Source: Escherichia coli (lineage in GTDB: Bacteria > Pseudomonadota > Gammaproteobacteria > Enterobacterales > Enterobacteriaceae). From it: DNA of 64,000 bases. Position numbers: made by a program. The stretch is from NCBI RefSeq assembly GCF_050920415.1, contig NZ_CP169309.1; one strand, 5' to 3'. How positions within the stretch are numbered: the first letter of the stretch is position 1; every line of letters starts with the position of its first letter. Of this stretch, positions 44,001 through 47,000 are shown piece after piece.

Positions 44001-47000
44001 TAACGCGGGTATCCATCGCCACGTCGTTCAGCGCCATGCCGCCCCAGCCACAAATACCGAGCAGCCCGATACGGTTGCGATCTACCTCTTTTTGCAGCCC
44101 TAAGAAATCCACCGCCGCGCTGAAATCTTCAGTGTTGATATCCGGTGAGGCGACGTTTCGCGGATAGCCGCCGCTTTCCCCGGTGTAAGAAGGATCGAAC
44201 GCCAGGGTAACAAACCCTCGTTCCGCCAGCGTCTGCGCATACAGGCCGCTGGATTGCTCTTTCACCGCGCCAAATGGCCCACTGACCGCAATCGCCGCCA
44301 GCTTGCGATCGCCACGGTCTTTAGGCAGGTAAAGATCGCCCACTAAGGTGATGCCATATCGGTTCGGGAACGAGACTTTACGGTGATCGACTTTCTGGCT
44401 CTCGGCGAACGTTTTATCCCATTTATCTGTCATGGACACAGGGGCATTAGGATTGGTTGAATCAGCATAACTCATTGTCGTGACTCCACTTAATGATGCG
44501 AAAAGCAGCATGGTCGGCATCGCGGTTTTTAGCGTTCGGGTGAAGGCTTTCATAAAAATCCCCATAAAAAACAACAGAGAGATACAGGTTTCCGACGGAC
44601 AACACTGCGGTGCTTTACTTTGATGGGGTCATTATAGTGAGCAGAATTAGTGCTGATTAGGGGGCGATTAATGCTAAGATTAATACCATATTGTTATAAA
44701 TTAATGCGGAGATTGCCGGCATGAAGGGGGGATGTTTCAATGGCGAAAAGGGAGAACTACAACGAGCTGTACCTGCTTATGCAGGTGGTGCGGGAAGGCA
44801 GCTTTACCGCAGCGGCTCAGCGGCTGGGTCTTGCTCAGTCAGGAGTCAGCCGTTCTGTTCGCGAGCTTGAAGAAAGGCTCGGCGTCCAGCTGCTAGTGCG
44901 CACCACGCGTAAACTGTCGCTGACGCAAGCAGGCGAGCAGCTCTACCAGAAGACGGCATCTGGATTTGAAATGTTAGATCTTGGGCTTGCCACACTGGCG
45001 CACTATCGAGAGACGCCCTCCGGCACGGTGCGTATCAATGCCAGCCAGCACGCGATTGATAAATGCCTGCTGCCAAAGCTGGCGGTATTTAAACAGCGAT
45101 ATCCTGATATCCGGCTTGAACTGATAAATGAGAGCCGGTTCGTCGATATCATCGAGGAAAGATTCGATGCTGGTGTCCGCCTGGGGCCTGAAGTCGGCCA
45201 GGGTATGGTCGCGGTACGCATCACGCCCGATATGGAGATGGCAATTGTGGGGACTCCGGAACATTTTCGTCGCTATGGTTTTCCGCAAACCCCGACTGAT
45301 TTAAAGGCACATCCCTGTATCGCCTATCAGTTTGCCGACGGCAGCGTATACCAGTGGGAACTCAATCAGGATGATAAAAAAATTACCCACCGGCCTGAAG
45401 GGCAATGGGCCCTATCCGACAGCTATATGGAAGCAGAAGCCGCACGGCTGGGCCTCGGATTGGCCTATGTTCCTGTTGAACTGGTTGCGGATGATTTAGA
45501 ACACGGTAAGCTTATCAGAGTGTTGCAGCGTTACAGCCTGCGAATGGAGGGATTGTTTCTCTATTACCCTCATCGCAACGTCTCCCCCGCTCTGCGGATG
45601 GTCATTGATACATTGAAAATCTGAACGTTAACAACGACCGACTCTTCACTGTGCAATATTGTGTCAGGTAGTCACTCTGCGTTCAATTCCAGGGGCCGCT
45701 TTGAGCGAGAAAGAGCGGACTTATCTGTACAAGGGGACTATCCAGCAATGGAGATCACCCATAAGAAAAAAGTACCAGGCTCCCTCGACAACCTTCATCC
45801 GGGAATTTAGCCTCAATCAACATTTTTATATCTGTCAGGTTACTTCATTATGAAAACCGATCAATATCGTTGTTTTTGTTGCAATAGTAGAATACGCGTA
45901 TTTATTCCTCCATTTCTATTAATAACGGCCATAAACTGTTCACTTCACTGATATTTAAAATATGCATCCTTTTCCTGTTTTTCAAGTTGTTCAGCGGCGT
46001 AAGAAAAAGTATTAATTATGAATTCGACGATTTAACCATTTCTGTCTGATTGGTAATCATCCGTGATTAATGCTGGTCTATTGATTACGCCAGCATTAAC
46101 CGCTTAGGGATGTATTCTTCCTGATCATATACCTCCCTCGAAAAGAGAGAAAATAAAACTGTGTCCAATATTACTCTACCACTCCAGACCGAAGCATCGG
46201 TAGAATTAGCAGAACGACTGGTACAATAGATTGGGATAGCGTCATTTGTCAGGTATTCCATTGCCTGACAAATGACAATTTTGAGTCAATAGACGTGCTT
46301 CTTGATCATGTCTTAAAAATTATACCATGAGCCTTATGAAGCATCATTTTTACTGACTGGTGTTAACTTTGCTATCATATAAACTCTGTTCTTAAAAAAC
46401 GCGCCCAGAATTTTATATGATTTCCCTTGTTTTTCTGCCTGTAAAGAAATTTCTTTTTCAGTGCTGTTAATGGTTGAACCGACGGCAGTAATCGTTTTGG
46501 CGACGCTACTGAATGATAATAAAGACAGTGTAACCACAACAATTAAAGAACAGATAGTATTCACGTTAATTCTCCTGACAATTGAGAGGGTGAGTTTTAT
46601 ATACATAGGTATTAAACATGAGTCATATTTACTCCAAGAGAAAATACTCCTTCTGTAATTAAACCTTCATCTCCTTCGGGGTGAGAAATACATAATGCAT
46701 CTTACTATGAAAAACAGGTGGATATAAATTTTCCTCCCTACCTATTTAATAAAACGTGAATATAAAAGTTATTCTTCAGTTTGCAGATGCAGTAGGTCTG
46801 ATGGTAATTTCGGTTGTATCAACGCTTTCGGGAGATTCAATAATATGCCTTACAGCACGGGCAATATCCGCGGGTTGAAGTGCAACAGAACGGTAGGCGT
46901 CCATTGACTTCATGGTTTCCACATGGGTCATGGTTGAAGCCAGTTCACTTTCTACAACCCCAGGATTTACGCAGGTCACACGGATTTTCGAGCTTTCCTG

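What the first reader, a model, noticed from the sequence alone, without database searches (positions are those of the whole stretch)
45849..46140. Decayed paralogous copy of the ykgR...ykgO locus forms direct repeats flanking the ecp-pao segment
45863..45970 is about 94 percent identical to 26549..26656 (3' part of ykgR plus downstream sequence), and 45985..46140 resembles the last 27 nt of ykgO plus its downstream hairpin region (27351..27500). The second copy has lost the ykgR N-terminus (frameshifting deletion) and essentially all of ykgM-ykgO. Both copies are in the same orientation, about 19 kb apart, bracketing ecpRABCDE, ykgJ, yagU, paoABCD and the small island, so they could mediate deletion or duplication of this block by homologous recombination, or mark an old segmental duplication.
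Basis: seen in the sequence. Interest (0 to 1): 0.6.

Follow-up and report, generated by a model that had tools for sequence, protein, structure and literature searches.

The report
Gene relic marking a 19-kb block
A broken second copy of the ykgR–ykgM–ykgO locus lies 19.3 kb downstream of the working copy, and the two copies mark the exact edges of a block (spare ribosomal proteins, the common pilus, an aldehyde oxidase) that a few E. coli and several related Escherichia lineages lack; it looks like an evolutionary scar, not a working element.

Summary
Window 45854–45987 matches 26540–26673 (91%, E 8e-50) and 45989–46128 matches 27350–27489 (77%, E 6e-26). The copies have the same orientation and lie 19,314 bp apart.

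Copy 2 holds the last 69 nt of ykgR plus its trailer. A 676-bp deletion with microhomology at its ends joins this to the tail of ykgO and a hairpin. RefSeq already annotates 45854–45922 as a ykgR pseudogene.

It is not a dispersed repeat: genomes carry one or two places. Copy 2 is complete in 616 of 5,426 complete E. coli genomes. K-12 lost it in a 6.1-kb deletion.

Three complete E. coli genomes lack exactly the interval between the repeats. So do two divergent Escherichia lineages, and they share the same deletion junction. No genome shows a simple copy1|copy2 hybrid, a duplication junction or an intact copy 2. The longest exact match between the repeats is 22 nt.

The two repeat segments give discordant trees, so one old duplication followed by decay is not enough. 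I favour, weakly (about 0.5), that the relic is the original end of the locus and that E. coli gained the block. The rival, loss by recombination between the repeats, stands at about 0.35. Interest is modest.

The parts
26508..26609 (+). copy 1: intact ykgR (33-aa small membrane protein)
   Evidence: PGAP annotation of the near-identical record; translation read from sequence
26540..26673 (+). repeat segment A, copy 1 (ykgR nt 33-102 plus trailer; A proper ends at 26661, then TTTTAAG microhomology)
26662..27337 (+). 676 bp present only in copy 1: spacer upstream of ykgM, ykgM (26973-27236) and the first ~34 codons of ykgO (27236-27376)
27338..27489 (+). repeat segment C, copy 1: last ~39 nt of ykgO plus trailer with 13-bp-stem hairpin (27429-27461); overlaps the 3' end of ykgL on the minus strand
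26540..45853 (+). the 19,314-bp interval bounded by the repeats (ykgR 3' part, ykgM, ykgO, ykgL, ecpRABCDE, ykgJ, yagU, paoABCD, MFS transporter, alpha/beta hydrolase, LysR regulator); no integrase or transposase; G+C from 35% to 61%
45625..45853 (+). junction sequence J between the LysR stop codon and the relic; no similarity to the region upstream of ykgR; ends in ...CATTATGAAAAC
45854..45987 (+). repeat segment A', copy 2: ykgR pseudogene lacking nt 1-32 (45854-45922), plus trailer
   Evidence: (PGAP: 'incomplete; missing N-terminus')
45975..45989 (+). deletion junction (…CCTGTTTTTCAAGTTGTTCAG…), shared by every copy 2 and every single-copy locus examined; local slippage hot spot (9-nt deletion, 14-nt duplication in other strains)
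45976..46128 (+). repeat segment C', copy 2: ykgO tail remnant and trailer with hairpin 46067-46099 (one compensatory pair change relative to copy 1)
46241..46276 (+). 15-bp-stem hairpin followed by a T run; terminator-like, downstream of the relic
46334..48699 (.). genes always found next to the relic: DUF1471-like small protein (46334-46612, -), SDR oxidoreductase (46776-47498, -), LysR regulator (47597-48496, +; K-12 yagP is its C-terminal fragment), tRNA-Thr thrW (48624-48699, -)

Best explanation
Window 45854-46128 is a non-functional relic of a ykgR-ykgM-ykgO unit. It carries two lesions, and every carrier examined has both. The first is truncation at ykgR nt 32/33, where the relic abuts unrelated sequence downstream of a LysR gene. 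The second is a 676-bp deletion with TTTT(C)AAG microhomology at its ends, which removed the ykgM promoter region, ykgM and most of ykgO.

The relic and the working locus are the two ends of a 19,314-bp presence/absence segment. Where the segment is absent, an intact ykgR runs straight into the same deletion junction, ykgO tail, hairpin and downstream genes (small DUF1471-like gene, SDR, LysR, thrW).

Most likely order of events (inferred):
1. The genus ancestor had ykgR-ykgM-ykgO next to these thrW-proximal genes.
2. The 676-bp deletion happened before E. coli split from the sampled cryptic lineages.
3. The E. coli lineage then acquired a block carrying a different ykgM-ykgO, ykgL, ecp, ykgJ, yagU, pao and an MFS/hydrolase/LysR cassette. 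Homologous pairing in ykgR joined one side, and an illegitimate junction at ykgR nt 33 joined the other, which duplicated about 122 nt of ykgR and its trailer.
4. Most E. coli, including K-12, later lost the relic through thrW-proximal deletions.

Shown: the anatomy, the shared junctions, the distribution, and the absence of recombinants. Inferred: the direction (gain rather than loss) and the integration mechanism.
For: Anatomy.

Fixed structure: the same J|A' junction and the same deletion junction occur in 8 genome-derived copy-2 loci and in 16 of 16 metagenome copy-2 contigs.

Interval absent, with intact ykgR contiguous to the relic:
- 6EVA, wlxctx60 and GF4-3, L018 and L049.
- Two divergent Escherichia lineages, L010-13 and L019-22. 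Their identity to the window is rclBC 88%, SDR 92%, small gene 84-86%.

fergusonii-type genomes keep ykgR plus trailer running about 40 nt into the ykgM-upstream spacer. That is the undeleted state. An integrase remnant and thrW follow.

Segment A: E. coli copy 1, copy 2 and the single-copy loci share derived bases (26614, 26623-24, 26632-33) against both cryptic lineages and the fergusonii type. The A duplication therefore looks younger than that split. Single-copy loci share four derived bases with copy 2, at both ends of A (26548, 26572, 26657, 26659), and one with copy 1 (26593).

Segment C: copy-1 C differs from every C' by 31-45 of 152 nt. E. coli C' and cryptic C' differ by only 15-19, so copy-1 C is the outgroup.

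No c1|c2 hybrid, duplication junction or intact copy 2 in 5,426 genomes. The best copy-1 match to the single-copy ykgR+A among about 5,000 genomes is 97.1%. Longest exact run between the repeats is 22 nt.

In other genera ykgM-ykgO lies between pdeB and ylaC, without ykgR.
Against: Gain requires a donor whose ykgR/A part was E. coli-like while its ykgO trailer was about 25% diverged. Alternatively the crossover fell in the last ~30 nt of A, or the recipient still had ykgM-ykgO, which conflicts with the deletion being older. No donor-type arrangement (LysR-J followed by something other than the relic) was found.

The single-copy A segment is numerically midway between copy 1 and copy 2 (6 and 6 differences; the two copies differ by 10), as a recombinant would be. 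All these inferences rest on a handful of sites in 122-152 nt.

One single-copy E. coli (GF4-3) groups with copy-2 haplotypes in the downstream 640 nt. That fits a separate loss or allelic exchange.

Loss between direct repeats is mechanistically simpler than gain. E. albertii and the other named Escherichia species could not be sampled, and the species identity of the outgroup loci rests on database names and divergence only. The interval is compositionally mosaic, and its MFS/hydrolase/LysR cassette occurs alone in Kluyvera and Klebsiella. The block is therefore not one homogeneous imported unit.
Confidence: 0.5

Rival explanations
1. Older in-situ event plus loss. The two-copy arrangement (working locus, block, second copy) already existed in the common ancestor of E. 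coli and the cryptic lineages. Copy 2 decayed through the truncation and the 676-bp deletion. Segment A was kept similar by gene conversion and by selection on ykgR. The interval-less loci in cryptic lineages and in rare E. coli arose by recombination between the A repeats, or by import of such a deleted allele. This is what the first reader proposed.
For: The missing interval equals the distance between the repeats to the base. The single-copy A is equidistant from copy 1 and copy 2. C/C' divergence (20-30%) exceeds the E. coli-cryptic divergence (10-13%), which fits a duplication older than that split. Copy-1 A is nearly invariant across phylogroups (0-3 differences), so it evolves slowly and understates age. 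GF4-3 groups with copy-2 haplotypes downstream. Deletion between direct repeats is a common process (own knowledge).
Against: The left-most informative sites of the single-copy A (26548, 26572) are copy-2-like, whereas a crossover product must be copy-1-like on the left. No copy 1 among about 5,000 genomes carries those bases; the best match is 97.1%. It needs conversion acting on A but not on the equally long C. It needs at least two or three independent losses or transfers in paraphyletic lineages. No recent recombinant occurs in 5,426 genomes, and the present repeats have exact runs of 22 nt or less.
Confidence: 0.35
2. The relic has a present function. Candidates are the conserved hairpin acting as a terminator or protein-binding site for neighbouring genes, or the new 33-codon ORF (45850-45951) or an antisense small ORF encoding a small protein.
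For: The hairpin is kept in both copies with one compensatory pair change: -22.6 and -18.7 kcal/mol, z -5.7 and -4.7. The relic's structure is stable across diverse E. coli and cryptic lineages.
Against: There is no T run after the hairpin and no Rfam family. The relic sequence is among the most polymorphic stretches of the region: copy-2 haplotypes differ by up to 7-8%. It has been deleted without replacement in most E. coli. The antisense ORF loses its ATG in the cryptic lineage (sequence). The 33-codon ORF is an out-of-frame read-through of ykgR.
Confidence: 0.05
3. The similarity is chance, or reflects a known dispersed repeat (REP/ERIC/IS end).
For: The region is AT-rich and contains palindromes.
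Against: E-values are 8e-50 and 6e-26. Only two places occur in this genome and the median is one per genome. The similarity covers coding sequence of ykgR and ykgO. There is no match in Rfam.
Confidence: 0.01

Closest known systems
ykgR pseudogene as annotated by NCBI PGAP in RefSeq E. coli genomes
   Same: Same feature. Window 45854-45922 is annotated 'small membrane protein YkgR; incomplete; missing N-terminus' in MFDS1022581, A_5, 3059, PapM-32-1, O157:H7 FRIK804 and PCN033.
   Different: The annotation covers only the 69-nt coding remnant. It does not record the trailer, the ykgO tail, the shared 676-bp deletion, or the relation to the 19.3-kb interval. I found no paper describing these; a full-text search for 'ykgR' returned 30 papers, and none of the 15 listed titles concerns this locus.
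Low-copy direct repeats that bound deletion- or duplication-prone chromosomal segments (for example rrn, rhs or IS copies in E. coli)
   Same: Two same-orientation copies bracket a segment that is present in some genomes and exactly absent in others.
   Different: Each segment is only 122-152 nt and 9-23% diverged, with exact runs of 22 nt or less. That is at or below the minimal length usually quoted for efficient RecA-dependent exchange in E. coli (about 23-27 bp; own knowledge). No recent recombinants were seen in 5,426 genomes.
Homology-facilitated illegitimate recombination or Campbell-type integration footprints (a target segment duplicated on both sides of acquired DNA)
   Same: One boundary is collinear with the ancestral ykgR locus. 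The other is an abrupt junction inside ykgR with short microhomology. The duplicated target segment flanks the insert, and there is no integrase or att-tRNA at the boundaries.
   Different: The mechanism is inferred from anatomy and trees only. No donor arrangement or circular intermediate was observed, and the insert is compositionally mosaic.
Zur-regulated ykgM-ykgO (L31B/L36B) operon
   Same: Copy 1 is the canonical operon. Copy 2 derives from a second such unit, since it retains the codons for the ykgO tail (...VQRRKKKY*).
   Different: Copy 2 lacks the promoter/Zur-box spacer, ykgM and about 34 of the 46 ykgO codons, so it cannot act as the operon.

Membership tests
YkgR family gene (Pfam PF28062) | Sequence homologous to ykgR | tested here: met
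   69 nt are 91% identical to ykgR codons 12-33 plus the stop codon. PGAP names it YkgR.
YkgR family gene (Pfam PF28062) | Complete 33-codon ORF with start codon in frame | tested here: not met
   The ykgR frame is preceded by TGA at 45851-45853 and nt 1-32 are missing. The ATG at 45850 opens a different frame.
ykgM-ykgO Zur-regulated operon | Promoter/Zur-box spacer, ykgM and ykgO coding sequences present | tested here: not met
   676 bp corresponding to 26662-27337 are absent from copy 2. No genome holds an intact copy 2.
Dispersed repeat families (REP/BIME, ERIC/IRU, IS ends) | Many copies scattered around the genome | tested here: not met
   Two places in this genome. The median is 1 and the maximum 4 places per genome across 5,087 matching genomes, always at this locus in the records inspected.
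Dispersed repeat families (REP/BIME, ERIC/IRU, IS ends) | Match to a curated repeat or RNA model | tested here: not met
   Rfam 15 returned only sub-threshold noise on both copies. Rfam is not a complete catalogue of REP/ERIC elements.
Integrase-mediated genomic island with att direct repeats | Integrase or recombinase gene within the bounded segment and a tRNA/att core at its ends | tested here: not met
   No integrase or transposase is annotated in 26540-45853. thrW lies 2.5 kb beyond the relic. The repeats are gene fragments, not a tRNA 3' end.
Recombination-active direct repeats (segmental-duplication type) | Same orientation | tested here: met
   Both copies are on the + strand.
Recombination-active direct repeats (segmental-duplication type) | Uninterrupted identity long enough for efficient RecA-dependent exchange | tested here: not met
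   The longest exact run is 22 nt and there are 12 mismatches in 134 nt. The threshold itself comes from my own knowledge.
Recombination-active direct repeats (segmental-duplication type) | Natural recombinant products (deletion or duplication with a hybrid repeat) | tested here: inconclusive
   Interval-less genomes exist, but their repeat is not a copy-1-left/copy-2-right hybrid. No duplication junction was found in 5,426 genomes.

The most novel reading that the evidence does not exclude
The spare zinc-independent ribosomal proteins YkgM/YkgO, the E. coli common pilus (ecpRABCDE), YkgJ, YagU and the PaoABCD aldehyde oxidoreductase reached the E. coli lineage as one 19.3-kb insertion into ykgR. 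The recipient locus had already lost its own ykgM-ykgO. The relic at 45854-46128 is the footprint of that event: a target segment duplicated by homology-facilitated integration. Under this reading the 'core' ECP/Pao genes of E. coli are a datable lineage-specific acquisition, absent from cryptic-clade relatives.
Probability: 0.45. Interest if true: 0.45.

Novelty: new member of a known kind. Interest (0 to 1): 0.3.

Why it matters
The relic has no evident function, so it matters for evolutionary and practical reasons.

- It gives base-precise boundaries for a presence/absence segment. That segment carries genes usually treated as E. coli core traits: ECP/Mat pili, PaoABC, and the zinc-starvation ribosomal paralogs.
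- It shows that some E. coli and sister Escherichia lineages lack that segment exactly.
- The shared 676-bp deletion junction is a simple marker for typing this locus and for separating these arrangements in assemblies.
- If the gain scenario holds, E. coli re-acquired ykgM-ykgO after its ancestors lost them. It would also be a worked example of an integrase-free insertion that leaves a duplicated gene fragment.
- For annotation, the ykgO-tail remnant is currently unannotated, and the relic should not be mistaken for a second ykgR gene.

Tried and rejected
- The genome-contig scan with a degenerate ykgR pattern returned only two tiny contaminant contigs.
- The LysR next to the relic was used to look for a donor arrangement. 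Its MFS/hydrolase/LysR cassette occurs alone in Kluyvera and Klebsiella with unrelated neighbours, which is uninformative.
- YkgM variants at 80-91% identity were followed in the hope of finding an intact ancestral copy 2 or a non-coli copy 1. They turned out to be a ykgM on a conjugative element, frameshifted ordinary E. coli loci, or other genera with ykgMO between pdeB and ylaC.
- A metagenome scan with the copy-2 hairpin found 16 copy-2 loci and one single-copy locus. None had an undeleted copy.
- Plasmid hits to the locus are F-prime plasmids or mislabelled chromosomes.
- An antisense ORF in segment A (MHILNITEVNSLLPLLIEMEK) was rejected because its ATG is lost in the cryptic lineage.
- Extension of the C homology into ykgL or beyond was rejected. 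Protein similarity is limited to EQEEYIPRK, and the nucleotide score equals that of shuffled sequence.
- UTME-7, the closest relative of 6EVA by its proA-frsA flank, has an IS1-mediated deletion of the whole region, so it does not help with direction.
- Papers on E. marmotae, E. albertii and E. fergusonii do not mention ecp, pao or ykg genes.
- I first assumed the window was strain MFDS1022581 throughout. That is wrong outside 644-48641, so I dropped statements about a Drt3/P4-like island being in the window.
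Full report
Source of the window. From 644 to 48641 the window is 99.98-100% identical to E. coli MFDS1022581 (NZ_CP169399.1). It lacks two mobile elements of that strain and differs to the right of thrW. I therefore use that record's PGAP annotation only for 644-48641. The gene order around the finding is fdeC, ykgR, ykgM, ykgO, ykgL (frameshifted), ecpRABCDE, ykgJ, yagU, paoABCD, an MFS transporter, an alpha/beta hydrolase and a LysR regulator. Next comes the finding, followed by a small DUF1471-like gene, an SDR oxidoreductase, a second LysR, tRNA-Thr (thrW) and proA.

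The observation. A BLAST of 45600-46500 against the whole window gives two significant off-diagonal matches and nothing else above noise.
- 45854-45987 matches 26540-26673: 134 nt, 91%, ungapped, E 8e-50.
- 45989-46128 matches 27350-27489: 140 nt, 77%, E 6e-26.

Both matches are on the + strand and the offset is 19,314 bp.

Anatomy of copy 2.
- Segment A' starts at ykgR nt 33. In the ykgR frame it is preceded by a TGA. The ATG at 45850 opens another frame.
- Upstream of 45854 there is no similarity to the ykgR leader. The homology may therefore simply begin there, next to a short CAT..AAAC microhomology. I cannot decide between the two.
- A' runs through the ykgR stop codon and about 53 nt of trailer. 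It then meets the tail of ykgO across an ambiguous TTTT(C)AAG motif that is present at both ends of the missing 676 bp in copy 1. That is the signature of a microhomology-mediated deletion.
- Comparison with a fergusonii-type locus that still has the undeleted sequence places the true end of A at 26661. About 39 nt of ykgO survive.
- Segment C' carries a hairpin that is retained in both copies with one compensatory pair change: -22.6 and -18.7 kcal/mol, z about -5. No T run follows it.
- Similarity ends at 46128. Neither nucleotide nor protein comparison extends it into ykgL or beyond.

Not a repeat family, and already partly annotated. Across 5,426 complete E. coli genomes the sequence occurs once or twice per genome, with a median of 1. 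Rfam gives only noise. PGAP annotates 45854-45922 as a ykgR pseudogene in every two-copy genome I opened. The trailer and the ykgO remnant are not annotated.

Distribution.
- The whole relic with short flanks is present in 616 of 5,426 genomes.
- About 920 genomes hold at least part of the LysR-relic-small gene stretch.
- Most strains have lost it. K-12 has a 6,134-bp deletion (window 42024-48157) that fuses paoD to the C-terminal part of the second LysR, which is yagP. The CP4-6 prophage lies next to it at thrW.
- Other strains have other deletions, or islands whose edge falls inside the relic hairpin.
- All 8 genome-derived copy-2 loci and all 16 metagenome copy-2 contigs have the same left junction and the same deletion junction. 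Both lesions therefore predate the diversification of copy 2, whose haplotypes differ by up to 7-8%.

Testing the recombination idea. I built chimeric queries for the products expected from exchange between the repeats and searched all complete genomes.
- No genome has a deletion through C.
- No genome has a duplication junction or an intact copy 2.
- No genome has a plain copy-1/copy-2 hybrid in A.
- The longest exact run between the repeats is 22 nt. Together with 9% divergence, this makes them poor substrates for RecA-dependent exchange (threshold from my own knowledge).

The same search did reveal three genomes (6EVA, wlxctx60, GF4-3) in which an intact ykgR, with its normal upstream region and fdeC, runs directly into the deletion junction, ykgO tail, hairpin, small gene, SDR and LysR. 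They therefore lack exactly the 19,314-bp interval. A draft genome (L018, labelled E. fergusonii but 97.5-98.5% identical to E. coli in proAB) and a metagenome contig (L049) have the same arrangement.

Relatives outside E. coli.
- Homologues of the small gene exist only in Escherichia.
- Two divergent lineages have the single-copy arrangement with the same deletion junction and no L31/L36, ecp or pao genes within 10 kb. Their proteins are named Escherichia sp. KTE114 and Escherichia sp. MOD1-EC6842 / E. coli H605 by the databases. Their identity to the window is rclBC 88%, SDR 92% and small gene 84-86%.
- Genomes carrying a YkgR variant that UniRef assigns to E. fergusonii (proAB 94.8% to E. 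coli) have ykgR and its trailer continuing about 40 nt into the ykgM-upstream spacer. This is the undeleted, copy-1-like state. An integrase remnant, thrW and proA then follow.
- In other genera ykgM-ykgO sits between pdeB and ylaC, with no ykgR. The link between ykgR and ykgM-ykgO is therefore an Escherichia feature.

What the sequences say about history.
- Segment C (152 nt): copy-1 C differs from every C' by 31-45 positions. E. coli C' and cryptic-lineage C' differ by only 15-19. Copy-1 C is therefore the outgroup.
- Segment A (about 125 nt), rooted with the fergusonii type: E. coli copy 1, copy 2 and the single-copy loci share derived bases at 26614, 26623-24 and 26632-33 against both cryptic lineages. 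The E. coli copies thus form one group.
- Within that group the single-copy loci share four derived bases with copy 2, two at each end of A (26548, 26572, 26657, 26659). They share one with copy 1 (26593). Copy 1 has one private change and copy 2 has two or more.
- No copy 1 among about 5,000 genomes matches the single-copy ykgR+A better than 97.1%.
- The two segments give discordant trees. A single ancient duplication followed by independent decay therefore cannot be the whole story.

Two scenarios. In the first, which I weight at about 0.5, the single-copy, already deleted locus is ancestral to E. coli plus the cryptic lineages. The E. coli lineage then acquired the block. Homologous pairing in ykgR joined one side and an illegitimate junction at ykgR nt 33 joined the other, duplicating A.
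- This scenario explains several observations without further assumptions: the shared deletion, the outgroup distribution, the young A duplication, the foreign-looking copy-1 C, the copy-2-like single-copy A, and the lack of an integrase.
- Its weakness is that the crossover must lie in a narrow stretch at the end of A, or the donor was itself a mosaic. No donor arrangement was found.

In the second scenario, at about 0.35, the two-copy arrangement is older than the split. A was kept similar by conversion and by selection on ykgR, since copy-1 A is almost invariant across phylogroups. The single-copy loci arose by exchange between the repeats or by import of such an allele.
- This scenario explains three things: the base-exact loss, the midway position of the single-copy A (6 and 6 differences, against 10 between the copies), and GF4-3 grouping with copy-2 haplotypes downstream.
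- It does not explain the copy-2-like bases at the left end of the single-copy A. It also needs conversion in A but not in C, and it needs several independent losses.

Because single-copy alleles can exchange sequence with both copies through ordinary homologous recombination between strains, the few informative sites cannot settle the matter.

Function. I see no evidence of present function. The relic is polymorphic and is lost in most E. coli. It has no promoter/Zur box, no intact ORF in the original frames and no RNA-family match. The candidate antisense ORF is not conserved. The conserved hairpin is the only hint of function, and I give a functional reading about 0.05.

Comparison with what is known, and verdict. 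The closest known items are the following:
- the PGAP ykgR pseudogene annotation, which is the same object, partly described;
- low-copy direct repeats that bound deletion-prone segments, which have the same geometry but here are too short and too diverged, with no recent products;
- footprints of homology-facilitated or Campbell-type integration, which is how I think the relic arose, though this is unproven.

The relic is not a REP/ERIC/IS family member, not an integrase island boundary and not a working ykgM-ykgO operon; the defining features were tested and not met. I found no paper on it.

The finding is a real and neatly structured genomic scar. It is useful for reconstructing how E. coli came to hold ykgMO, ECP and Pao at this site. 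It is not a new kind of element, and I score interest at 0.3.

Noticed in passing
window 48605-58204 (thrW, proA, proB, phoE, crl, frsA, gpt, pepD): This stretch is 98.5% identical to a fergusonii-type Escherichia genome (L068, CP086604.1) but only 95.1-95.6% identical to three E. coli genomes. Immediately to the left of thrW the window is ordinary E. coli. This may be an inter-lineage recombination breakpoint in or at thrW.
   Followed up: partly
window 6134-11419 (betT, betI, betB, betA): The bet genes are only 93.4-94.0% identical to those of E. coli 6EVA, GF4-3 and UTME-7. That is unusually divergent for one species, but I did not compare them with typical strains.
   Followed up: no
L027-L029, around 10001-10279: A ykgM homologue (91% aa, 78% nt, with its own palindromic upstream region) sits alone inside a conjugative element (TraC, TraU, TraG, integrase) in E. 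coli assemblies. It is a mobile copy of the zinc-independent L31 paralog.
   Followed up: partly
L005 8297 (strain 3059); window-equivalent 46093-46095: In some strains an island carrying AbiEi/AbiEii and a large reverse transcriptase runs from thrW up to a point inside the relic's hairpin. The hairpin has therefore served as a deletion or insertion edge.
   Followed up: partly
window 45964-45990 and equivalents in other strains: The deletion junction is a slippage hot spot. A 9-nt deletion between CTTTTC repeats recurs in several copy-2 haplotypes and in one single-copy locus, and GF4-3 has a 14-nt tandem duplication there.
   Followed up: partly
window 46241-46276: A perfect 15-bp-stem hairpin followed by AATTTTGAGT (-24.6 kcal/mol, z -7) lies between the relic and the small DUF1471-like gene. 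It may be the original terminator of the ykgR-side transcript or a bidirectional terminator.
   Followed up: partly
window 27411-27637 (minus strand): ykgL is frameshifted in this lineage. Its last 26 codons overlap repeat segment C and the hairpin, and only the peptide EQEEYIPRK is mirrored in an ORF of the relic. ykgL may be a young or spurious ORF laid over a terminator region.
   Followed up: partly
L003 4141-16472 and L001 23300-36100 (strain MFDS1022581, not in the window): The closest complete genome carries a 12.3-kb capsid-encoding satellite-like island inserted in rclA. It also carries a P4-like island with Drt3a/Drt3b antiviral reverse transcriptases next to thrW. The window has neither.
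   Followed up: no
L037 17950-20600 (O157:H7 FRIK804): In O157:H7 an ISEc8 element sits between ykgR and ykgM, and copy-1 ykgR is frameshifted, while the copy-2 relic is retained.
   Followed up: no
window 1-643: The window starts inside an IS2-like element that is 100% identical to the IS2 copy interrupting a GyrI-like regulator gene in MFDS1022581. At this position the reference strain has pdeL/ehaA sequence instead.
   Followed up: no
L030, L061-L063: In other enterobacterial genera (about 71% nt identity to E. coli in the flanks) ykgM-ykgO lies between pdeB (ylaB) and ylaC, near hha-tomB-acrB, without ykgR. E. coli has that site empty.
   Followed up: partly
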